Shown: piece after piece, positions 5,333-37,281 of the stretch | Numbering within the stretch: position 1 is the stretch's first letter | How the letters are laid out: every line of letters begins with the position of its first letter | Origin: an uncultured Fibrobacteraceae bacterium | Lineage (GTDB): Bacteria; Krumholzibacteriota; Krumholzibacteriia; LZORAL124-64-63 | Assembly (NCBI GenBank): GCA_964476155.1 | Contig: CAYYYS010000003.1 | Coordinates: 52,489 to 116,488, forward strand | Direction: 5' to 3' | DNA length: 64,000 nucleotides | Made by a program: the position numbers and the translations under genes | The notes under the pieces: model-generated | What the model was told of the DNA's origin: nothing | What the model saw: the letters and a program-made list of their open reading frames with translations, nothing else | Databases searched by the model: none

Positions 5333-5409
<77 letters not shown>

Positions 5410-17568: not shown

Positions 17569-19935
17569 TCAGTCCTCCCCCTGGGCCGCTACCGCCGCGT
17601 CGGTCACCGATCCCAGCGGCTGTGGGCCTCGGCCCAGGCGCTGCAAATAGGCGATCAGGGCGGTCAGCTTGCTGTCCGGGTCCACCAGTAGATCCTGGTC
17701 GGCCAGATCGTCGGAGATGAGCCGTCCCTGGGCGAGTGCGGTCTCGTTCGCCGCCGCGATCAGCTCGTTGCTGTAGGGCACGCCGATGGTGCGCAGCACT
17801 TCCATCTTCTTGGCCGTACCGGCGAAATTCACCTTCTGGTCCTTCAGATGGGGGTACATGGGCATATTGGAGCCCGGCGAGGTGTTGCGCGGGTCCATCA
17901 TGTGCAGGTAGTGCCAGAGGTTGGCGTACCGGCCGCCGACCCTGTGCAGGTCGGGTCCCGTGCGCTTTGACCCCCACTGGAAGGGCGTATCGTAGATGAA
18001 CTCCTCCGCTCGCGAGTACGCGCCGTAGCGCAACGTCTCGTGTCGGAAGTATCGGATCATCTGGCTGTGACAGACGTAGCAGCCCTCGCTGACATAGATG
18101 TCGCGGCCCTCGAGTTCAAGGGGACTGTAGGGCATCTGCACAAAGACGTATTCGCCCGTGGCGGCGTATACCGAATCGGCATAGGCCACCTGCTGGGGCA
18201 CGTCCTTCTTGGCGATCACCATCGGAATGATTTCTACCATGCCGCCGACCAGAATGGCCAGGAGCACCAGTACGGAGAAGGCTACCGAATGGCCCTCCAC
18301 CAGCTCGTGCCAACCCTTGCCGCTGCGCTTGACTCCGACGGCCATGGTCGCCGAGATGGTCACGATGATGAAGCCGGCCACTGCCAGCGCGCTACCCAGT
18401 ACACCGGTGGCGAAAAGCACCAACGAGAGCAGGATCAGGATCGTCGAGTAGACGACCGGGGCGCCGCTTATCAGCCTCCAGAATCCGGGCCCACCCTTCT
18501 CATAGCTCTGTACATCGATCTCCACGTTGTGGGCCTTGCCGCTGCGGATCGTCGCCCAGAGGTTGACCACCATCATGAGGGCGCCGATGAGATAGACCGT
18601 GCCGCCGAACAGGCGCGTATGGTACATCATCTTCGAGGCCAATAGACCCTCGATGAAGTCGGGGTACTTGAGGAAGGCGTCGGCGTCCAGCGCCCGCCAG
18701 AATAGGCCCTGGCTCACACCGGAGATCCACATGGAGACGAGGTAGAGCATGATGCCCAGAGTGCCGATCCAGAAGTGGGCCTCGGCCCATTTCACCGACC
18801 AGAGCTTGGTCTTCCATAGGCGCGGCACCATCCAATAGAGCATGCCGAAGGTCATGAAACCGTTCCAGCCCAGGACACCGCCGTGGACGTGACCGATGAT
18901 CCAGTCCGTGTAGTGCCCCAGGGCACTGACGCTTTTGATGGACAGCAGCGGTCCCTCGAAGGTCGACATGCCGTAGAAGGTCACCGCGACGATGTAGAAC
19001 TTGATGACCGGGTCGGTGCGCAGCTTGTCCCAGGCACCGCGCAGGGTCAGTAGACCGTTGAGCATGCCGCCCCAGGAGGGCGCCCACAGCATGATGCTGA
19101 AGATCATGCCCATGGTCTGGGCCCAATCCGGCAGAGCCGTGTACAGCAGATGGTGCGGTCCGGCCCAGATATAGAGGAAGATCAGGGACCAGAAGTGCAC
19201 GATGGAAAGGCGGTACGAATAGACCGGCCGCCCCGCCGCCTTGGGCAGGAAGTAATACATGATGCCCAGAATCGGTGTCGTCAAAAAGAAGGCCACGGCG
19301 TTGTGGCCGTACCACCACTGGACCAGCGCATCCTGCACGCCCGTGAATATCGAGTAGCTGTGGGTCCAACTCGTGGGAATCTGCAGGTTGTTGACGATGT
19401 AGAGCACCGCAATGGTTACGATCGTGGCTATGTAGAACCAGATGGCGACATAGAGATTGCGCTCGTTGCGTTTTCCCAGGGTCCAGAAGAAGTTCACGGC
19501 GAAGACGACCCAGATCAGCACGACGGCGATGTCGATGGGCCAGATCAGCTCCGCGTATTCCTTGCTCTGGGTGAGCCCGAGCGGGTAGGTCACCGCGGCG
19601 GCGACAATGATGAGCTGCCAGCCCCAGAAATGGATCCAGCTGAGAGCATCCGAAGCGAGCCGCGTCTTGAGAAGACGCTGGGTCGAATAATAGATGCCGG
19701 CGAAAATCATATTGCCCACGAACGCGAATATGGCCGCGTTGGTGTGCAGCTGGCGTAATCGTCCGAACGATGTCCACTGCAGGTTGAGGTTCGCCTGCCA
19801 GAAAGACAACTGGGTCGCAACTATCACACCAACGAGCAATCCCACCACAGCCCACAAAATGGTCGCGATGGAAAAGGCCCGCACGATTCCGTCATCGTAA
19901 ACGATGTGTTTGGTCTCGGGAGTCGCGGTTTGCAT
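17569..19935 (-). CDS. ccoNO: cbb3-type cytochrome c oxidase subunits I and II fused (CcoN-CcoO)
   Basis: 788 aa. The N-terminal 12-TM heme-copper oxidase domain shows the WWYGHNAV and HHLLYT His ligands. The C-terminal CcoO-like domain carries CYVCHS heme c and MPMYPH. Confidence 0.9.
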   Translation of the reverse strand: MQTATPETKHIVYDDGIVRAFSIATILWAVVGLLVGVIVATQLSFWQANLNLQWTSFGRLRQLHTNAAIFAFVGNMIFAGIYYSTQRLLKTRLASDALSWIHFWGWQLIIVAAAVTYPLGLTQSKEYAELIWPIDIAVVLIWVVFAVNFFWTLGKRNERNLYVAIWFYIATIVTIAVLYIVNNLQIPTSWTHSYSIFTGVQDALVQWWYGHNAVAFFLTTPILGIMYYFLPKAAGRPVYSYRLSIVHFWSLIFLYIWAGPHHLLYTALPDWAQTMGMIFSIMLWAPSWGGMLNGLLTLRGAWDKLRTDPVIKFYIVAVTFYGMSTFEGPLLSIKSVSALGHYTDWIIGHVHGGVLGWNGFMTFGMLYWMVPRLWKTKLWSVKWAEAHFWIGTLGIMLYLVSMWISGVSQGLFWRALDADAFLKYPDFIEGLLASKMMYHTRLFGGTVYLIGALMMVVNLWATIRSGKAHNVEIDVQSYEKGGPGFWRLISGAPVVYSTILILLSLVLFATGVLGSALAVAGFIIVTISATMAVGVKRSGKGWHELVEGHSVAFSVLVLLAILVGGMVEIIPMVIAKKDVPQQVAYADSVYAATGEYVFVQMPYSPLELEGRDIYVSEGCYVCHSQMIRYFRHETLRYGAYSRAEEFIYDTPFQWGSKRTGPDLHRVGGRYANLWHYLHMMDPRNTSPGSNMPMYPHLKDQKVNFAGTAKKMEVLRTIGVPYSNELIAAANETALAQGRLISDDLADQDLLVDPDSKLTALIAYLQRLGRGPQPLGSVTDAAVAAQGED

Positions 19936-23375: not shown

Positions 23376-23608
23376 TCGTTTCGGCGCCACCGCAGCAGTC
23401 CACGTTGTCTTCCTTTCCATGGTCATCAGAATTACAGACTCTTTTGCTCAGGTTACCCCAGGGCAAAAGCACGCGCAACACGTATTGCGATCGGAAGTTA
23501 GCAAGACTGACTTGAAGTGGACAGAGCCACGCTTTCCTGTTCCCGCGCCGCAGGTGTTGCTCTAGTATCGGCATAGCATCATCCTGACCACAAACCAACG
23601 GTGAGACC

Positions 23609-26600
23609 ATGACGACAGACGGAACACATCTGACGAGCGACTTGGCGGCCTGGCGCGACGGCGAGGCCGATCCCGCCTCGGCGGCAACCCTCCTGGATAC
23701 CTACAGTCACCATCTGGAAACGGATGCTCTGGACGAGGGCGTTTGGCGCGCGTTCCTGGAAATCACCCGCGAACCCGACTTCCTGGAGGCCCTCCCCGAC
23801 GACGACGCCCGTCGCCGCTGGGCGGACCTGGCCATCGGTGTGGTCCGGCGCACGGGCTTCACGTTGGCAGATCTGCTCGACCAGCGGGTGGCGGCTCATC
23901 CCTCGCGCATCTGGCTGCGGGAGAGCCCTCTGACCGACGGCTCCGAGTGGAGTTACGATCGTGTCCGCACGAAGGCGCGCACCTACGCCGCCGCGTTCCT
24001 GGGCACCGGGCCGTTGCCTCGCGTGGCCCTGCTCACACCCAACACGGCACGCGGCGCTTTCTGCGATCTGGCCTGCCTGCTCCACGGTATCCTGGTTACG
24101 CCCCTGTCTCCCCAAACCGACGCCGAGACCATCGCCTGGATCTGCGACACCCTCGGCGTGACCGTCATCGTCAGCGGCGGCGCGGAGCAGGCGGTTACGG
24201 CCACGGCGGCCATCAAGGCGGCCGACATCGACATCGTCCACCTCGTCCTGGAGGATCAGGCTCCCGCCGGCTGCGACGCGCGTCCCCTGGAAGCCCTGTG
24301 CGCGACCTTGACCCAATCGGACATCGACAATGCCCTGGCGGCTCAGCCCCGCTTCGGGCTGGACGACGTGGCCACGGTGATGTTCACCTCCGGCAGTACC
24401 GGCCGGCCCAAGGGCGTGGAGTTCTCCCTCTACAACCTGGTCAGCAAGCGCTTCGCGCGCGCCGCGGCCCTGCCGTCGGTGGGTCGCGACGAGGTCATGC
24501 TCTGCTTCCTGCCGCTCTTCCATACCTTCGGCCGCTACCTGGAACTGCTGGGCTCCATGTTCTGGGGCGGCGCGTACGTCTTCGTGGGCAACAACTCCCG
24601 CGCCACGCTGCTGACGCTGCTGCAACGGGTCCAACCCACCGGATTGATCAGCATCCCCCTGCGCTGGGCCCAGATCCAGGAGAGCTGTCTGAACCACATG
24701 GAGGATCAGGGCGCCGGCAAGCTGTCGGACGAGGACTTCCGCGCGGTGGCCGGTGGAAACCTGCGGTGGGGGCTGTCGGCGGCCGGCTATCTCGAACCGC
24801 GGATCTTCCGCTTCTTTCAGCGCCACGGCGTGGACCTGTGCAGCGGTTTCGGCATGACCGAAGCCACCGGCGGCATCACCATGACGCCCCCGGGCGACTA
24901 CCTGGACGATTCGGTGGGCAAGCCCCTGCCGGGCGTGAACGTACGTCTGACCGAACAGGGCGAGATGCAGATCTCGGGCCCCTACATCGCCAGTTACCTG
25001 GACCAGGAAGGCCACCCCGGCGACGGGAGCTGGCTGTCGACGGGCGATCTGTTCGCGCGTCACGAGAACGGTCACCTGGAGATCGTCGACCGCATCAAGG
25101 ACATCTACAAGAATTCCCGCGGCCAGACCATTGCGCCACGACGCGTGGAGCAGCGCTATGTCGAGGTGCCGGGCATCAAGCGTGTTTTCCTGGTCGGCGA
25201 CCATCGCGCGGACAACGTGCTGCTCATCGTGCCCGATCCCGAGGATCCGGTCCTGCAGGGAGATCCCGCGGGCAAAGAGACGCGCGACTACTTCCACCGC
25301 ATCGTGACCGCCGCCAACCGCGACCTGTCCTCGTTCGAGCGCGTCGTCAACTTCGCGGTGCTCGATCGCGACTTCAGCGAGGAGCGAGGCGAACTCACAC
25401 CCAAGGGTTCGTTCCGGCGCAAGACCATCGAGACGAACTTCCAGGACGTCGTGGACGATCTGTACCTGAGCGACAACGTGGATCTGCAGGTGAACAGCCT
25501 CACCCTGCGTGTGCCTCGCTGGTTTTTCCGCGATCTCAGCATCCTGGAGACCGACATCACGGCGGGATCGAAACATCTGCGAAACGTGGTCAACGGTTAC
25601 GAACTCGAAGTGGAACGGGTGGACGAGTCCTTCGTGCGGGTCGGCGACCTGCTCTACGAACTGCCCGGAGACACGGTCGACCTCGGCCGCCTGTCCCGTC
25701 AGCCCGGACTGTGGGCCGGCAACCCCCAATTGGCGGCCTTCTGCCCGGTCCGCGACGGTTGGGATACGCCCTACGCGCCCTTCACGCCCCATGTGTACCT
25801 GCCCTGGCGAAGCGAGAGCGGCGAGCCGTCCGATCCGGGCGCCCTGCCCCCCATGAGCGACCACCGGCTACCGCGCATCCACGATCTGTGTCGCAAGGCC
25901 CTGCTCGGGGTCGGCGAGTACGCCTTGAAGGCCGTGGTCGAGTTGGAAAAATCCCTGGCCATCGCCGATCACCGGACAGCCGAACTTATTCGGCGGCGAG
26001 TGGAAGCCCTGTCGCGCCATCCCGAGATGGACATCCGCTGCTATGCCTACCGCACGCTGGTGCTGGACGAACCATCACCCGACTTCAGCGAGTTGCGGCC
26101 CAAGTTCATCAGCTCCGGTCTACCGTTCCTGGACGCCAAGACCATCACGACGATTACCCGTGAGGGCATGGAGGGCCGCCGTCTGGATGCCTTCCGGCGT
26201 CGTCTGCACGCCTACCGCCTGCACCTGACCTGGCCGGGCGACGACCTGGTCCATTCCCAGTTCGAGAGCATCTTCACCATGCTGGCCGAGTTCGTGCGGC
26301 TTCATCCGGGCTACTACCGGGTGGTCCGCGACGAACTCGTGAGCTGGATCCTGCTGCGCGAGGATCCGGTGATCGCGGACCTGGCCGAACGCACGACCCT
26401 GGAACTCGGCAACTGGTACGAGGACTGGCTGGCCGGGACGCAGCCGTATCATGGCGAAGCCGTGTGGGAGCAGAAGATCCTCTTCCAGGACGGCTTGTCC
26501 CAAACGGAGATCACGCGTCTCGAGGAGACGCTAGCGGGCACGACCTTCCTGGAGCAGTCGGTCCGGCTGACCACCGGCGGCGAGATCCTGGATATGCGCG

Positions 26601-28204
26601 ATGTGCCCCAGGGGGGTATCTGGATCGGGCGGACGGCGGTCCGTCACCATCAGCGCATCTATCGGATCAGCGTGAACACGAACTCCGGCAAACACTACGA
26701 TCTGCTCATGGTGCTCTGGGACCAGGAAATCGTATCGCGGGACCGTGACGAACTCCTGGCCACGATCTACTGGCTGATCGCGCTCAGCGGCCACCCCCAC
26801 GGTACACCGGTCCTACCTCGCTTCGGCGCCTTCCGGCCCGGCATCGGCGCCCTGTCCCTGGCTTTCGTGAGTGACCTGAGTGTCTGGGAGCGGATTCGCG
26901 AATATGCCGGGGAGCGCGATCAAGGGCTCGACGTGGATCGCACCCTCGACTGGCGTACGCTCTTCGTGAAGGCTTTCACCACGTTCTTCCGCGGCTGGCG
27001 GATCAGCGGCGAGCGGATCGTGCCGGGCATGCTCACGCCCACCAACGTGGCAGTGCCGTCGCCCGATTTCCGCGAGGGTGCGCGCGTCCTGTCCCTGGCC
27101 GGGCTGCGCCCCTATGACAATCCCCTGAGCCTGGTGCAACCCATCCTGCACAATTTCTTCAAGCAGACGACGGTCACCTATCCCTGGACGCGCAACCGGC
27201 TCGAGCTCACCTGGATCTGCGACGCCTGTCTGGAGGCCATGCCCCGCGAGCGCGCCGAAAGTTTCCTCGCCGAGTTGCAGGACCTGATGCAGGACAGTCC
27301 CCTGGACGGTTACCGGGCTCAATTCGCGCGGGAACTCACGACCTACCGCGAACGCATGAAGATGGAGCCCCACATGAGCACCGCCCTGCGCGGCGCCGTG
27401 AAGCGTTACCGCAGTTGGGAACACTCGAATCCCGAGGCGTCTTCGACCGCCCGCGAACAGATCATCGTGGAGATGCGACACCTGTACGACCTGGACGCCC
27501 AGCCCCCGGTCGTCCGCTACATGCTCTACCGCCATACCTGGTTCCGGTGGTCGGCCGCACCGGTCCGCGAGGCCTTCGACGCCTTGCTGAGGACCCTGCA
27601 CACGACGCCGGACCGCGCGGCCACGGATCTGGTCGAGATTTCCAGGCTCCAGGCGCTGCTTCAGGATCCCGACGACCTGCGGATCTTCCGGCGCATGGTC
27701 TTCCCCCACTCGCCCTCGTCCCAGCAGCCCGTGCTGATGACCGTCGGCTCCGAGGAGGACCGGCATGTGGTGGTGGGCACCGAGATCGCCGACAAGACCG
27801 GCGCCACATACACGGTGCGGGTTCCCCTGGCACCGGCCGAATACGGCAAGCTGTACAGGCTTTTCTTCAAGGCAGGGTACTACAAGACCATCTCCGAGCA
27901 GGACCAGCTCTTCATCGTGTTCGACGAGCAGGAGCAGGTCATCGGCGGCATCAGCTGGACCGAGGTGGATCGTCAGGTGGTCCACCTGAACGGCATCGTG
28001 GTCGCGACGTCCCTGCTGGGCCGCGGTATCAGCAGCGTGTTGATCGAGGACTGCTGCGATCGCCTGGCCAACATGGGATACGAGACCGTCAAGACGCTGT
28101 TCGTGTTGCGTCCCTTCTTCGAACGGCACGGCTTCCATCTGGACAAGCGCTGGGGCGGATTGGTGCGGTCGTTGCAGGACATGCCGGAGGATGCTGAGAC
28201 GTGA
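23609..28204 (+). CDS. giant multidomain protein: N-terminal AMP-forming acyl-CoA synthetase/ligase domain, ~750-aa unknown central region, C-terminal GNAT acyltransferase domain
   Basis: Single 1531-aa ORF. Residues ~100-620 carry the adenylate-forming enzyme motifs (VMFTSGSTGRPKGV, GFGMTEATGG, GDL...DRIKD, PKGSFRRK). The C-terminal ~150 aa carry a GNAT CoA-binding motif (IVVATSLLGRGISSVLIEDCCDRLANMGYETV). The middle region has no motif I recognise. The overlapping 806-aa ORF in another frame is an R/P-rich artifact. Confidence 0.7.
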   Translation: MTTDGTHLTSDLAAWRDGEADPASAATLLDTYSHHLETDALDEGVWRAFLEITREPDFLEALPDDDARRRWADLAIGVVRRTGFTLADLLDQRVAAHPSRIWLRESPLTDGSEWSYDRVRTKARTYAAAFLGTGPLPRVALLTPNTARGAFCDLACLLHGILVTPLSPQTDAETIAWICDTLGVTVIVSGGAEQAVTATAAIKAADIDIVHLVLEDQAPAGCDARPLEALCATLTQSDIDNALAAQPRFGLDDVATVMFTSGSTGRPKGVEFSLYNLVSKRFARAAALPSVGRDEVMLCFLPLFHTFGRYLELLGSMFWGGAYVFVGNNSRATLLTLLQRVQPTGLISIPLRWAQIQESCLNHMEDQGAGKLSDEDFRAVAGGNLRWGLSAAGYLEPRIFRFFQRHGVDLCSGFGMTEATGGITMTPPGDYLDDSVGKPLPGVNVRLTEQGEMQISGPYIASYLDQEGHPGDGSWLSTGDLFARHENGHLEIVDRIKDIYKNSRGQTIAPRRVEQRYVEVPGIKRVFLVGDHRADNVLLIVPDPEDPVLQGDPAGKETRDYFHRIVTAANRDLSSFERVVNFAVLDRDFSEERGELTPKGSFRRKTIETNFQDVVDDLYLSDNVDLQVNSLTLRVPRWFFRDLSILETDITAGSKHLRNVVNGYELEVERVDESFVRVGDLLYELPGDTVDLGRLSRQPGLWAGNPQLAAFCPVRDGWDTPYAPFTPHVYLPWRSESGEPSDPGALPPMSDHRLPRIHDLCRKALLGVGEYALKAVVELEKSLAIADHRTAELIRRRVEALSRHPEMDIRCYAYRTLVLDEPSPDFSELRPKFISSGLPFLDAKTITTITREGMEGRRLDAFRRRLHAYRLHLTWPGDDLVHSQFESIFTMLAEFVRLHPGYYRVVRDELVSWILLREDPVIADLAERTTLELGNWYEDWLAGTQPYHGEAVWEQKILFQDGLSQTEITRLEETLAGTTFLEQSVRLTTGGEILDMRDVPQGGIWIGRTAVRHHQRIYRISVNTNSGKHYDLLMVLWDQEIVSRDRDELLATIYWLIALSGHPHGTPVLPRFGAFRPGIGALSLAFVSDLSVWERIREYAGERDQGLDVDRTLDWRTLFVKAFTTFFRGWRISGERIVPGMLTPTNVAVPSPDFREGARVLSLAGLRPYDNPLSLVQPILHNFFKQTTVTYPWTRNRLELTWICDACLEAMPRERAESFLAELQDLMQDSPLDGYRAQFARELTTYRERMKMEPHMSTALRGAVKRYRSWEHSNPEASSTAREQIIVEMRHLYDLDAQPPVVRYMLYRHTWFRWSAAPVREAFDALLRTLHTTPDRAATDLVEISRLQALLQDPDDLRIFRRMVFPHSPSSQQPVLMTVGSEEDRHVVVGTEIADKTGATYTVRVPLAPAEYGKLYRLFFKAGYYKTISEQDQLFIVFDEQEQVIGGISWTEVDRQVVHLNGIVVATSLLGRGISSVLIEDCCDRLANMGYETVKTLFVLRPFFERHGFHLDKRWGGLVRSLQDMPEDAET

Positions 28205-35874: not shown

Positions 35875-37281
35875 TCATCCGCCGATCTGCGCCATGCTGT
35901 CGAAGGTCCGGTCGGTCCGTTCCCGTTCCGCGGCCCGACCATCCAGAAGTCGATTGGCGACCGACGTCCGAATGGCCTGTTCGAGCAGATCGTCTCGGGC
36001 GCCCTCGCGCTGCAGACGACCCAGATCGGCTCCGGTGGCTCCGTAGAGACAGGTCCGCAGCCGTCCCCTCGCGTCCAGGCGTAGTCGGCTGCACCCCGCG
36101 CAGAACGTGCGGCTGTGCCCCCTGATGACGCCGACCCGGCCCCGGTGTCCGGGTATCGTGTACAGGTCGTCGACGTCGGCCGCCGCGTTCGGGCTCTCTT
36201 GCAACTCGAAGCGGACGCGCAGACGCTCGATGATCTCGTCCCCCGTTATGCCCCGAGCGAGCCTCTCACCCGACCCGACGAAAGGCATGGGCTCGATGAA
36301 GCGTACGGTAACGTCCCGCTCGCGAGTCAATTCGACGAAGGCCGGGAGTTCGTCGTCGTTGACGCCGGGGATCACCACGACGTTGATCTTGAGAGCCAGC
36401 CCCGCCGCGGGGATCAGGTCCAGCAGGGGGCGAACCCGCGGCAATTCGTCGCGGCGCGTGACGTGCCGATAGGTGTCGCGATCCAGGGAGTCGAGGCTGA
36501 GATTAACGCGGCGGACACCCGCCGCGGGGAGGTCGGCGAGGCGGTCAGCAAGCAAGACGCCGTTGGTGGTGAGCAGGATCTCGGGTCGTGAGGGCAGCTC
36601 CGCCAAACGGGCCATGAAGCGAAGCACGCCTTTGCGAACCAGGGGTTCACCGCCGGTCAGGCGAATCTTACGTATCCCCACCCCTGCGAACAGGGCGGTC
36701 AAGCGATACAATTCCTCGAAGGACAGCACATCGCGGTGACTCACAAGCGGAATACCGTCAGTGGGCATGCAGTACCGACACCGCAGATTGCAGCGATCGG
36801 TGACCGACAGGCGCAGATAGTCGAGCTGGCGGCCCTGGGGATCGCGAAGTGGTTCGATAAGAGCAGATCCAGCCGACGCTGAAGCACCAGGAGGCCCGGT
36901 GTGCGGGAGGGGCATGTTTTCCTTCCAAGTACGGGAGCTGATCACGCCGTTTCCCGCGTGACCGTAGCGGCCCTTCGCCGTGTCCCGATCAGGGGATTTA
37001 GGTAGCCGGGCTGGGAAAACACAGTCTTGTGTTGTATGCTGCGACTCCAGAGACGCCCTGTACACTTCCAGTTTTGGTAGCGCGCTGGTCTTGTCGCCCT
37101 CAACCAAAACGAGATCCATCGCATTAAACCACAAGGACAGGATACTGTCCAGAGAGTGCTCGGGCCTAGCCCGGGTCACTACGGCAATCCTGGTCCCCGA
37201 TGCGATGACCTTTTCCAACAGGGTCGTCTTGCCCGTACCCGAACGAGCGACGAAAGCCACGGCCGGTGGATGTCTGGTCAT
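35875..37281 (-). CDS. moaA: fusion of shortened MobB-like P-loop domain and GTP 3',8-cyclase MoaA (radical SAM)
   Basis: The N-terminus AFVARSGTGKTTLLEKVI...DLVLVEGDKTSALPKLEVYRA resembles MobB with an internal deletion. It runs in-frame into a MoaA domain with CNLRCRYC (the radical SAM CxxxCxxC) and GGEPLVRKG. The start is ambiguous between 37356 and 37281. Confidence 0.75.
   Translation of the reverse strand: MTRHPPAVAFVARSGTGKTTLLEKVIASGTRIAVVTRARPEHSLDSILSLWFNAMDLVLVEGDKTSALPKLEVYRASLESQHTTQDCVFPARLPKSPDRDTAKGRYGHAGNGVISSRTWKENMPLPHTGPPGASASAGSALIEPLRDPQGRQLDYLRLSVTDRCNLRCRYCMPTDGIPLVSHRDVLSFEELYRLTALFAGVGIRKIRLTGGEPLVRKGVLRFMARLAELPSRPEILLTTNGVLLADRLADLPAAGVRRVNLSLDSLDRDTYRHVTRRDELPRVRPLLDLIPAAGLALKINVVVIPGVNDDELPAFVELTRERDVTVRFIEPMPFVGSGERLARGITGDEIIERLRVRFELQESPNAAADVDDLYTIPGHRGRVGVIRGHSRTFCAGCSRLRLDARGRLRTCLYGATGADLGRLQREGARDDLLEQAIRTSVANRLLDGRAAERERTDRTFDSMAQIGG

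What the first reader, a model, noticed from the sequence alone, without database searches (positions are those of the whole stretch)
23609..28204. 1531-aa single-polypeptide fusion of an AMP-forming acyl-CoA synthetase domain, a ~750-aa unknown domain and a C-terminal GNAT acyltransferase
The N-terminal ~620 aa carry the motifs of the adenylate-forming (ANL) superfamily, including the P-loop-like TSGSTGRPKG. The last ~150 aa carry a clear GNAT CoA-binding signature (LLGRGISSVLIE...). The ~750 aa between them match nothing I recognise. Known protein acetyltransferases of the Pat/YfiQ type fuse a GNAT to an NDP-forming synthetase-like domain and act on AMP-forming synthetases in trans. Here the AMP-forming enzyme itself is fused to a GNAT. 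One possible function is self-regulation of the synthetase by acylation. Another is a one-polypeptide amide-bond-forming machine that activates an acid and transfers it to an amine, for example an N-acyl amino acid or lipoamino acid. The ANL A10 lysine region is atypical (PKGSFRRK instead of PKTxSGK). The gene is divergently arranged with the cbb3 operon and convergent with ppx, so context gives no functional clue. That makes the protein itself the point of interest.
Basis: partly seen in the sequence, partly recalled or inferred. Interest (0 to 1): 0.8.

Follow-up and report, generated by a model that had tools for sequence, protein, structure and literature searches.

The report
Acyl-CoA synthetase–pseudokinase–GNAT fusion protein family
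The 1531-residue gene is real and belongs to an uncharacterised protein family, so far seen only in uncultured bacteria of several phyla, that always joins an intact acid-activating enzyme, a helical-repeat scaffold, a degenerate kinase-like domain and an acyl-transferase in one chain; its substrate is unknown.

Summary

In this protein and its main clade the PKL domain lacks the catalytic Asp, the alphaC Glu and the Gly-rich loop. It keeps the metal-binding Asn and the DFG-Asp. A divergent clade keeps more canonical kinase motifs.

The architecture is fixed in all 184 full-length homologues and in all 80 fetched species-representative loci where the contig is long enough. These come from Gemmatimonadota, Acidobacteriota, Bacteroidota, Zixibacteria, Krumholzibacteria and others, all MAGs. 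The central module occurs nowhere else among 1.84 billion representative proteins. No neighbouring gene is conserved, and I found no literature on the family.

Best guess (confidence 0.4): the ANL domain makes an acyl-CoA, and the rigidly mounted GNAT transfers that acyl group to an amine acceptor selected or gated by the HEAT/PKL platform. Self-acylation of the ANL domain is the main rival.

I rate it a new variant of a known kind, interest about 0.6.

The parts
23609..28204 (+). Whole gene, 1531 codons plus stop. Soluble protein with no TM segment.
   Evidence: maximum Kyte-Doolittle 19-residue window 1.5; homologues start at the same Met
23609..23878 (+). N-terminal extension, residues 1-90. 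Conserved (W46, L50, T53, L62, W71). No family match.
23879..24970 (+). ANL N-terminal subdomain (PF00501), residues 91-454. It includes A3 TSGSTGRPKG (24386-24415) and A5 GMTE within FGMTEATGGIT (24848-24880).
   Evidence: motif invariance in 184 sequences
25040..25468 (+). ANL hinge and C-terminal subdomain, from A7 TGD (residues 478-480) to residue 620; PF23562 covers 503-620. A8 DRIKD..G..I.P lies at residues 494-510.
25397..25423 (+). Atypical A10 loop TPKGSFRRK (residues 597-605). Ser601 occupies the canonical Lys position. K599 and R604 are invariant, and K605 is about 90% conserved.
25469..25744 (+). Small beta-rich domain, residues 621-712, with the invariant P-R-W-F-x-R-D motif (P636, W638, R641). 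Its fold was not identified.
25865..26572 (+). HEAT/ARM-like alpha-solenoid, residues about 753-988. R797, H804, R810 and Y814 are invariant in the main clade.
26618..27700 (+). Protein-kinase-like (PKL) domain, residues about 1004-1364. The N-lobe is 1004-1085 and the helical C-lobe is 1092-1364.
27014..27076 (+). Remnant catalytic loop and DFG region, RIVPGMLTPTNVAVPSPDFRE (residues 1136-1156). M1141 sits at the HRD-Asp position. N1146 and D1153 are conserved.
   Evidence: The mapping onto kinase motifs is my inference from the model's secondary structure and the APH-type HGDxxxxN...D pattern.
27725..28171 (+). GNAT domain, residues 1373-1521. The CoA-pyrophosphate motif [RKL]-G-R-G-I-[SGA] lies at residues 1470-1475 (28016-28033).

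Best explanation
The protein is a self-contained acyl-activation and acyl-transfer enzyme.

Step 1 (inferred from strictly conserved motifs): the ANL domain adenylates a carboxylic acid. Its nearest relatives are ACSL/FadD11-type ligases and CAR adenylation domains, so the acid is probably not acetate. The domain then thioesterifies the acyl group to CoA.

Step 2 (inferred): the acyl-CoA is used in cis by the C-terminal GNAT, which transfers the acyl group to an amine on a separate acceptor and regenerates CoA. The net reaction would be acid + ATP + amine -> amide + AMP + PPi.

Step 3 (inferred): the beta domain, HEAT-like solenoid and degenerate kinase-like domain form one rigid body with the GNAT. 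This body supplies acceptor recognition and/or a ligand-gated switch. The kinase-like pocket keeps its metal-binding Asn and Asp and several invariant Arg/Trp residues. It therefore probably still binds a phosphate-bearing ligand such as a nucleotide or a CoA ester, but in this clade it cannot act as a conventional kinase.

Shown here: the domain identities, the motif conservation, the fixed architecture and the exclusivity of the central module. Not shown: any substrate, the use of CoA, or the acceptor.
For: Both catalytic ends are under strong constraint.
- ANL motifs A3, A5, A7 and A8 are invariant or nearly so in 184 full-length homologues of both clades.
- The GNAT motif-A core G1473 is kept in 176/184 sequences and position 1475 is S/G/A in 164/184.

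The three-part architecture is never split or shuffled.
- Every full-length hit to the central profile among 1.84e9 representatives is a 1470-1710 aa protein with the centre at about 630-1400.
- The shorter hits whose sequences were read (6) begin inside the ANL C-subdomain or just after it, so they are fragments.
- In the fetched loci where the contig is long enough, the central domain lies in one ~1500-residue or longer ORF at the same relative position. Six loci that missed the ANL or GNAT motif patterns were checked by tblastn: four align to the whole query in one frame, one reaches its contig end, and one has an assembly-type frameshift.
- This pattern is what one expects when cis cooperation, such as hand-over of a product, is obligatory.

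The segment 621-1531 is predicted as one compact body (pTM 0.89, pLDDT 91.8).

The ANL C-subdomain aligns end to end with CAR/ACSL-type domains that thioesterify to a pantetheine thiol. No carrier-protein domain is present, which leaves free CoA as the thiol.

Two-enzyme ANL->GNAT amide-forming cascades exist. An engineered CoA-ligase/N-acyltransferase cascade appears in the listing (PMC13493320, title and abstract only). The mammalian ACSM/GLYAT glycine-conjugation pair is cited from my own knowledge.
Against: - No acceptor, acyl substrate or CoA dependence has been demonstrated.
- Gene context gives no partner or pathway.
- The A10 lysine is displaced, so ANL kinetics or chemistry may be unusual.
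- The same conservation pattern is also compatible with cis self-acylation.
- I could not inspect the model coordinates, so the orientation of the GNAT site relative to the kinase-like pocket or the ANL domain is unknown.
- The full-length chain exceeds the predictor's size limit.
Confidence: 0.4

Rival explanations
1. Built-in autoregulation. The GNAT acylates a lysine of the ANL A10 loop (K599 or K605) of the same chain or a partner chain and switches the synthetase off. This is what Pat, AcuA and MtPat do in trans. The kinase-like domain would act as the sensor that gates the switch, for example by reading energy charge or acyl-CoA level.
For: - ANL enzymes are the best-established substrates of bacterial GNAT lysine acyltransferases, and regulatory domains fused to the GNAT are the rule (types I-III in PMC8556138).
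- K599 and K605 are highly conserved next to the ANL-to-platform junction.
- A catalytically degenerate, pocket-conserved kinase-like domain fits a sensor role.
Against: - The canonical PxxxxGK acceptor motif is absent, and the canonical A10 position is Ser.
- A 1:1 covalently attached inhibitor of one's own active site is not known for any ANL enzyme (own knowledge).
- About 750 residues of rigid scaffold seem excessive for reaching a loop about 20 residues from the junction.
- No deacylase is linked in any locus examined.
Confidence: 0.22
2. A three-step small-molecule pathway on one chain. The ANL domain activates an acid to its CoA ester. The kinase-like domain binds that CoA ester and, in the divergent clade, phosphorylates it, as the APH-type domains of ACAD10/11 and LvaA do with 4-hydroxyacyl-CoAs. 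The GNAT-fold domain then performs acyl transfer or a GNAT-type decarboxylation.
For: - APH-like kinase domains acting on acyl-CoAs are documented (PMC12440821, PMC11342911).
- The divergent clade keeps a Gly-rich loop, the alphaC Glu (23/30) and the catalytic Asp (13/30).
Against: - In the clade that contains this window's protein, the catalytic Asp, the alphaC Glu and the Gly-rich loop are all lost, while the rest of the protein stays conserved. Phosphotransfer therefore cannot be essential to the family's function.
- Even within the divergent clade the Asp is present in only 13 of 30 sequences.
- No pathway genes are linked.
Confidence: 0.13
3. The ANL domain is a non-catalytic sensor or oligomerisation module for a GNAT protein acetyltransferase. 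This would be analogous to the inactive NDP-forming synthetase-like domain of Pat/PatZ.
For: - The overall layout resembles type I Pat: a large synthetase-like N-terminus and a C-terminal GNAT.
- The displaced A10 lysine could indicate impaired adenylation.
Against: - Every ATP-binding and catalytic ANL motif (A3, A5, A7, A8) is invariant across 184 sequences and two deeply diverged clades. That is not expected of a dead domain.
- Pat's domain, by contrast, has lost its catalytic His (PMC8556138).
Confidence: 0.05
4. An artefact: two or three genes joined by sequencing or assembly errors, or a chance ORF in GC-rich DNA.
For: GC-rich DNA here does give long spurious ORFs, for example the 761-aa antisense ORF at 23579-25864.
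Against: - The identical 1531-aa protein occurs on 13 independent contigs.
- A single ORF of the same length is found in the fetched homologous loci where the contig allows.
- AlphaFold models are confident across the domain junctions within residues 621-1531.
Confidence: 0.01

Closest known systems
Type I/II bacterial protein acetyltransferases (Pat/YfiQ/PatZ, S. lividans PatA)
   Different: - Pat's big domain is NDP-forming-type and catalytically dead (PMC8556138). Here it is an AMP-forming ANL domain with all catalytic motifs intact.
- Pat has no HEAT or kinase-like insert.
- None of the five published GNAT architecture types matches this protein.
AcsA-AcuA complex and cAMP-regulated MtPat/MsPat acting on FadD/ACS enzymes
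   Same: In both, a GNAT is physically coupled to an ANL enzyme, and a regulatory ligand-binding domain controls the GNAT.
   Different: - Those are separate polypeptides that act on the PxxxxGK A10 lysine.
- Here the two are fused and the canonical lysine position is Ser601.
- The candidate regulatory module here is a pseudokinase, not a cNMP, ACT or CBS domain.
CoA-ligase plus GNAT N-acyltransferase amide-forming pairs (mammalian ACSM2B/GLYAT glycine conjugation; engineered cascade PMC13493320)
   Same: The proposed chemistry is the same: acid -> acyl-CoA (ANL) -> N-acyl product (GNAT), with CoA recycled.
   Different: - Those are two independent enzymes without a scaffold.
- The acceptor here is unknown and may be a macromolecule.
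- The ACSM2B/GLYAT example is cited from my own knowledge.
Bifunctional AAC(6')-Ie/APH(2'')-Ia aminoglycoside-modifying enzyme
   Same: A GNAT and an APH-type kinase-fold domain sit in one rigid polypeptide (own knowledge).
   Different: - The domain order is reversed and both domains are catalytically active.
- It has no ANL domain and no solenoid, and it is a mobile resistance gene.
- The protein here is a chromosomal gene with a kinase-dead domain.
APH-like kinase domains of ACAD10/ACAD11 and bacterial LvaA
   Same: A kinase-fold domain is combined with acyl-CoA metabolism and binds acyl-CoA substrates (PMC12440821, PMC11342911).
   Different: - Those are active kinases fused or paired with acyl-CoA dehydrogenases.
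- No sequence similarity was detectable here.
- The catalytic Asp is missing in this clade.
Carboxylic acid reductase (CAR) adenylation domains and FadD11/ACSL-type ligases
   Same: These are the closest sequence relatives of the ANL part: 6oz1 at E 2e-20 and 5msp, FadD11 and PRK06187. They share the same C-subdomain type, PF23562.
   Different: - All NCBIfam scores are far below the family cut-offs (154.8 bits against 476; 135.5 against 950).
- There is no PCP or reductase domain.
- The A10 lysine is shifted by two residues.

Membership tests
ANL (adenylate-forming) superfamily | Match to PF00501 above the gathering score, plus a C-terminal subdomain | tested here: met
   183.4 bits against a cut-off of 29.9; PF23562 scores 42.4 against 20.8
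ANL (adenylate-forming) superfamily | Core motifs A3 (T-S-G-S/T-T-G-x-P-K-G), A5 (G-x-T-E), A7 (T-G-D) and A8 (D-R-x-K-D...G) | tested here: met
   Present at residues 260-269, 415-418, 478-480 and 494-505. The sampled positions of these motifs are invariant or nearly so in 184 homologues.
ANL (adenylate-forming) superfamily | Catalytic A10 lysine at the canonical position | tested here: not met
   The CAR A10 Lys aligns with Ser601. Invariant K599 lies two residues upstream. Whether K599 substitutes for it cannot be tested with these tools.
ANL subfamily: acyl-CoA ligase, as opposed to FAAL, carrier-loading or amide synthetase | CoA-dependent thioester formation | not testable with these tools
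   The only evidence is indirect: no carrier domain, and NCBIfam equivalog scores far below their cut-offs.
GNAT superfamily | GNAT fold | tested here: met
GNAT superfamily | Motif A, Q/R-x-x-G-x-G/A (CoA pyrophosphate loop) | tested here: met
   Residues 1470-1475 are L-G-R-G-I-S. In the family, position 1 is R/K/Q in 97/184, the Gly is kept in 176/184 and the last position is S/G/A in 164/184.
GNAT superfamily | Conserved general base or acid (Glu/Tyr) | tested here: inconclusive
   The usual Tyr in the F-Y-x-x-x-G-F motif is Y/F/C/L at position 1504. No invariant Glu could be assigned without coordinates.
Pat-type (type I/II) protein lysine acetyltransferase | NDP-forming acyl-CoA-synthetase-like domain fused to the GNAT | tested here: not met
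   No NDP-forming-type synthetase family appears among the Pfam hits. The large domain is an AMP-forming ANL.
Pat-type (type I/II) protein lysine acetyltransferase | Acetylates the PxxxxGK lysine of ANL enzymes | not testable with these tools
   The protein's own A10 loop lacks the motif (TPKGSFRRK).
Protein-kinase-like (PKL) superfamily | Bilobal kinase fold | tested here: met
Protein-kinase-like (PKL) superfamily | Catalytic residues: beta3 Lys, alphaC Glu, HRD/HxD Asp, Asn and DFG Asp | tested here: not met
   Main clade: the Asp position is A/M/L/P/T, the alphaC position is Thr, and there is no Gly-rich loop or beta3 Lys (R1019 instead). Only N1146 (151/154) and D1153 (143/154) are kept. 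In the divergent clade the Asp is present in 13/30 and the Glu in 23/30. The residue mapping is inferred from secondary structure, not from a structural superposition.
HEAT/ARM alpha-solenoid | Stacked helical hairpin repeats | tested here: met

The most novel reading that the evidence does not exclude
This family would be a sixth, previously unrecognised class of bacterial GNAT acyltransferase. It makes its own acyl-CoA donor from a free (fatty or aromatic) acid and ATP. It uses a HEAT-plus-pseudokinase platform to pick a macromolecular acceptor. Availability of a specific carboxylic acid, and perhaps nucleotide status read by the pseudokinase pocket, would then be written directly onto target proteins as an acyl mark in Gemmatimonadota, Acidobacteriota, Bacteroidota and related uncultured lineages.
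Probability: 0.15. Interest if true: 0.85.

Novelty: new variant of a known kind. Interest (0 to 1): 0.6.

Why it matters
If the coupled mechanism is right, this is a natural single-chain ATP-driven amide- or acyl-mark-forming enzyme that recycles CoA internally. That would interest biocatalysis, where CoA-ligase/N-acyltransferase cascades are currently assembled from separate enzymes. It would also interest the study of bacterial protein acylation, where no AMP-forming synthetase-GNAT fusion is in the current classification.

It also adds a bacterial pseudokinase whose pocket stays conserved while the catalytic residues are lost. A sister clade keeps those residues, which gives a clean system for asking what kinase folds do after they stop phosphorylating.

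The family is found only in uncultured members of several major environmental phyla, and annotation pipelines name it only generically. It is therefore a real blind spot in annotation.

Tried and rejected
- **Central region against sequence libraries.** Pfam at E<=10, a three-sequence profile of residues 625-1385 against all PDB sequences, NCBIfam and PADLOC gave nothing for the centre. NCBIfam gave only sub-threshold generic ANL hits.
- **afdb50 fold search.** The library was not available, so I could not look for named UniProt structural relatives.
- **Foldseek on residues 621-1000.** It gave only non-significant ARM/TOG matches. The small beta domain (621-712) remains unidentified.
- **Conserved gene neighbourhood.** I ran an all-against-all BLAST of flanking ORFs from about 77 loci. 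The best family is present in only 12 loci. The recurring neighbours are unrelated: a sensor kinase, an Rrf2 regulator, a PrsW protease, a prolyl oligopeptidase, an SNF transporter and isocitrate dehydrogenase. I rejected an operon partner, a linked deacylase or a lipid pathway.
- **ANL-less variants.** Hits of 900-1000 aa to the central profile looked like variants lacking the ANL domain. Their sequences begin inside the ANL C-subdomain or just after it, so they are fragments.
- **A GNAT-less homologue.** L084 has a frameshift, with the GNAT intact in the next frame.
- **A hidden carrier-protein domain.** There is no PP-binding hit. The conserved S836-G837 lies in a solenoid loop and does not fit the carrier motif.
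- **Cultured hosts.** None appears among the named proteins of about 240 best hits or in the cluster look-ups. All 80 listed species-representative loci are MAG or metagenome assemblies.
- **Literature.** Four full-text searches found no description of this architecture.
Full report
**1. Observation**

The ORF at 23609-28204 (+) is present exactly as described: ATG start, 1531 codons, no internal stop.

Pfam places three domains:
- AMP-binding at residues 91-454 (E 7.7e-54).
- The ACSL/CAR-type C-terminal subdomain PF23562 at 503-620 (E 1.1e-10).
- GNAT families at about 1424-1510 (PF00583, E 4.2e-8, above the gathering score).

NCBIfam gives only generic ANL hits, all far below the family cut-offs. 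The best are a long-chain-fatty-acid-CoA ligase subfamily, FadD11 and carboxylic acid reductase. The closest solved structures to the ANL part are CAR adenylation domains (6oz1 at E 2e-20, 5msp).

Residues 621-1400 have no Pfam match even at E<=10. The protein has no hydrophobic segment and no defence-system match.

Upstream and divergent lies a cbb3 oxidase assembly and structural cluster: a DsbD_2-family gene, a CcoI-type ATPase, a FixS homologue, fused ccoNO, ccoP and ccoG. Downstream and convergent lies Ppx-GppA, followed by sdhBAC and a Moco biosynthesis cluster.

**2. It is a real, conserved, single gene**

The identical protein sits on 13 independent metagenome contigs with the same neighbours.

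A protein search returns at least 120 full-length homologues of 1470-1590 aa at 44-92% identity. The sources name them only "GNAT family N-acetyltransferase", "AMP-binding protein" or "long-chain acyl-CoA synthetase". A second search seeded from a Bacteroidales homologue returns another roughly 120.

An 18-sequence alignment is conserved along its whole length (mean column identity 59%), including the centre, and most N-termini coincide.

A scan of one genome per GTDB species with two central-domain peptide patterns found 145 species. The 80 loci fetched come from Gemmatimonadota, Krumholzibacteria, Zixibacteria, Eisenbacteria, Acidobacteriota (several classes), Bacteroidota/Ignavibacteria/Kapabacteria/Chlorobiota, Deltaproteobacteria, NC10 and a few Gammaproteobacteria. 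All are MAG or metagenome assemblies.

In those loci the central domain lies at the same relative position inside one ORF of about 1500 residues or more wherever the contig is long enough. tblastn of six loci that lacked the ANL or GNAT motif patterns, or had a short ORF, showed four full-length single-frame matches, one match running to the contig end, and one exception, L084, which carries a simple frameshift with the GNAT intact in the next frame.

**3. The central module is exclusive to this architecture**

I searched an HMM of residues 625-1385 against 1.84 billion representative proteins. It finds only 380 proteins at E<=1e-3 and 192 at E<=1e-30. Every full-length hit is a 1470-1710 aa protein with the match at about 630-1400.

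Hits of 900-1000 aa start inside the ANL C-subdomain or just after it, so they are fragments.

Thirty of the 184 full-length sequences form a divergent clade with 18-29% identity to the window protein in the centre. Six members of that clade scanned with Pfam all have the same ANL...GNAT layout.

**4. What the "unknown" 750 residues are**

An AlphaFold2 model of residues 621-1531, built on 119 homologues, is confident: mean pLDDT 91.8 and pTM 0.89. I read this as one compact body rather than beads on a string.

From the secondary structure, the kinase-like domain spans about 1004-1364. The N-lobe strands are 1004-1037, the alphaC helix is about 1039-1060, and a long helical APH-like C-lobe follows.

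**5. State of the three nucleotide/CoA-handling sites**

These figures come from an alignment of 184 full-length sequences.

*ANL domain.*
- A3 (TSG[ST]TGxxK), A5 Glu, A7 Asp and A8 D-R-x-K are invariant or nearly so in both clades. I conclude the domain is catalytic.
- The A10 loop is unusual. HMMER alignment to CARs puts their catalytic Lys opposite Ser/Thr601.
- K599 is kept in 181/184 sequences, R604 in 184/184 and K605 in 160/184.

*Kinase-like domain, main clade (this protein).*
- The HRD-Asp position (1141) is A/M/L/P/T.
- The alphaC position (1052) is Thr.
- There is no Gly-rich loop and no beta3 Lys; an invariant Arg1019 sits on the neighbouring strand.
- N1146 (151/154) and the DFG-like D1153 (143/154) are kept.
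- R1266 and W1270 are nearly invariant in both clades.

*Kinase-like domain, divergent clade.*
- There is a Gly-rich "LGxxHGK[ST]VYR" loop.
- Glu is present at the alphaC position in 23/30 and Asp at the catalytic position in 13/30.

So the domain descends from a working kinase or ATP-binder. In this protein it is a pseudokinase with a conserved pocket. The mapping of residues to kinase motifs is my inference from sequence pattern and predicted secondary structure. I could not obtain a residue-level superposition.

*GNAT domain.* Motif A reads [RKL]-G-[RK]-G-[IL]-[SGA], with the Gly kept in 176/184. A conserved general acid or base could not be assigned.

**6. Context**

I extracted flanking ORFs from about 77 non-redundant loci and clustered them. 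No family recurs in more than 12 loci. The recurrent ones are unrelated housekeeping or regulatory genes (examples).

The gene therefore behaves as a stand-alone unit. No deacylase, lipid, siderophore or natural-product genes are linked to it.

**7. Mechanism**

The best-supported reading is a coupled machine. The ANL domain activates an acid to acyl-AMP and then acyl-CoA. No carrier domain exists, so CoA is the plausible thiol. The GNAT then uses that acyl-CoA in cis to N-acylate an acceptor. The rigid HEAT/pseudokinase platform provides acceptor binding and/or ligand gating.

The arguments for it are:
- Both catalytic ends are strictly conserved.
- The fusion is absolutely constant, and the central module is exclusive to it.
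- The 621-1531 segment is predicted to be rigid.
- Two-enzyme ANL->GNAT cascades provide a precedent.

I give this 0.40.

The rivals are:
- **Cis autoregulation of the ANL domain by lysine acylation (0.22).** It is attractive because ANL enzymes are the classic GNAT targets, and regulatory domains fused to GNATs are common (PMC8556138). It is weakened by the missing PxxxxGK motif and the size of the scaffold.
- **A three-step small-molecule route in which the kinase-like domain handles the acyl-CoA (0.13).** The precedent is ACAD10/11 (PMC12440821, PMC11342911). It cannot be the family-wide function, because the main clade has lost the kinase catalytic residues.
- **A dead, Pat-like sensor ANL domain (0.05).** This is contradicted by the motif invariance.
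- **An assembly artefact (0.01).** This is excluded.

The remaining probability, about 0.19, is for functions I have not thought of.

**8. Comparison with known systems and novelty**

The published classification of bacterial GNAT protein acetyltransferases has five architecture types, and none includes an AMP-forming synthetase. Four full-text searches found no description of an ANL-HEAT-kinase-like-GNAT protein.

The protein works like a member of the ANL, GNAT and PKL superfamilies at the fold level. It fails one defining feature of canonical ANL enzymes (the A10 Lys position) and most catalytic features of kinases. It is not a Pat-type enzyme, because it has no NDP-forming-type domain.

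I file it as a new variant of a known kind: a multidomain GNAT acyltransferase with a synthetase partner. It is not categorically new, because every domain is of a known fold and no new chemistry has been shown.

Interest is 0.6. The architecture would surprise specialists in ANL, GNAT or pseudokinase enzymology, and it is widespread in uncultured phyla. However, function is unknown, no cultured host was found, and it does not yet unlock a specific open question.

Noticed in passing
window 36903-37029 (-): A Moco (molybdenum cofactor) riboswitch, RF01055, at 40.3 bits against a gathering score of 36. It lies at the 5' end of the minus-strand moaA / MOSC / moaC-mog / moeA cluster (gene content).
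   Followed up: no
window 17572-19935 (-): ccoN and ccoO of the cbb3 oxidase are fused in one 788-aa ORF: COX1 at residues 17-447 and FixO at 543-769. The same fusion is called on the matching metagenome contigs.
   Followed up: no
window 5333-5406 (+): A tRNA gene, 66.4 bits.
   Followed up: no
window 23579-25864 (-): A 761-aa antisense ORF overlaps the ANL-coding part of the gene. I take it to be a GC-rich shadow ORF, because the sense frame carries all the conservation.
   Followed up: partly
P0197, P0202, P0207, P0215, P0225 and others (divergent clade; related proteins, not in the window): A sister clade of 1546-1710 aa proteins has the same architecture but a more canonical kinase domain: Gly-rich loop LGxxHGK[ST]VYR, alphaC Glu in 23/30 and catalytic Asp in 13/30. 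Some members are labelled Ignavibacteriales. This clade may retain phosphotransfer or ATP hydrolysis.
   Followed up: partly
L084 8108-8151 (Gammaproteobacteria MAG): The homologue switches reading frame between the kinase-like domain and the GNAT (tblastn frames 1 to 2 at query residues 1332-1346). This is either an assembly error or a pseudogene.
   Followed up: yes
family-wide: Every named source of this family among about 240 best hits is labelled MAG, and all 80 listed species-representative loci are MAG or metagenome assemblies. No isolate genome was seen, although Bacteroidota, Acidobacteriota and Gemmatimonadota have many cultured members.
   Followed up: partly
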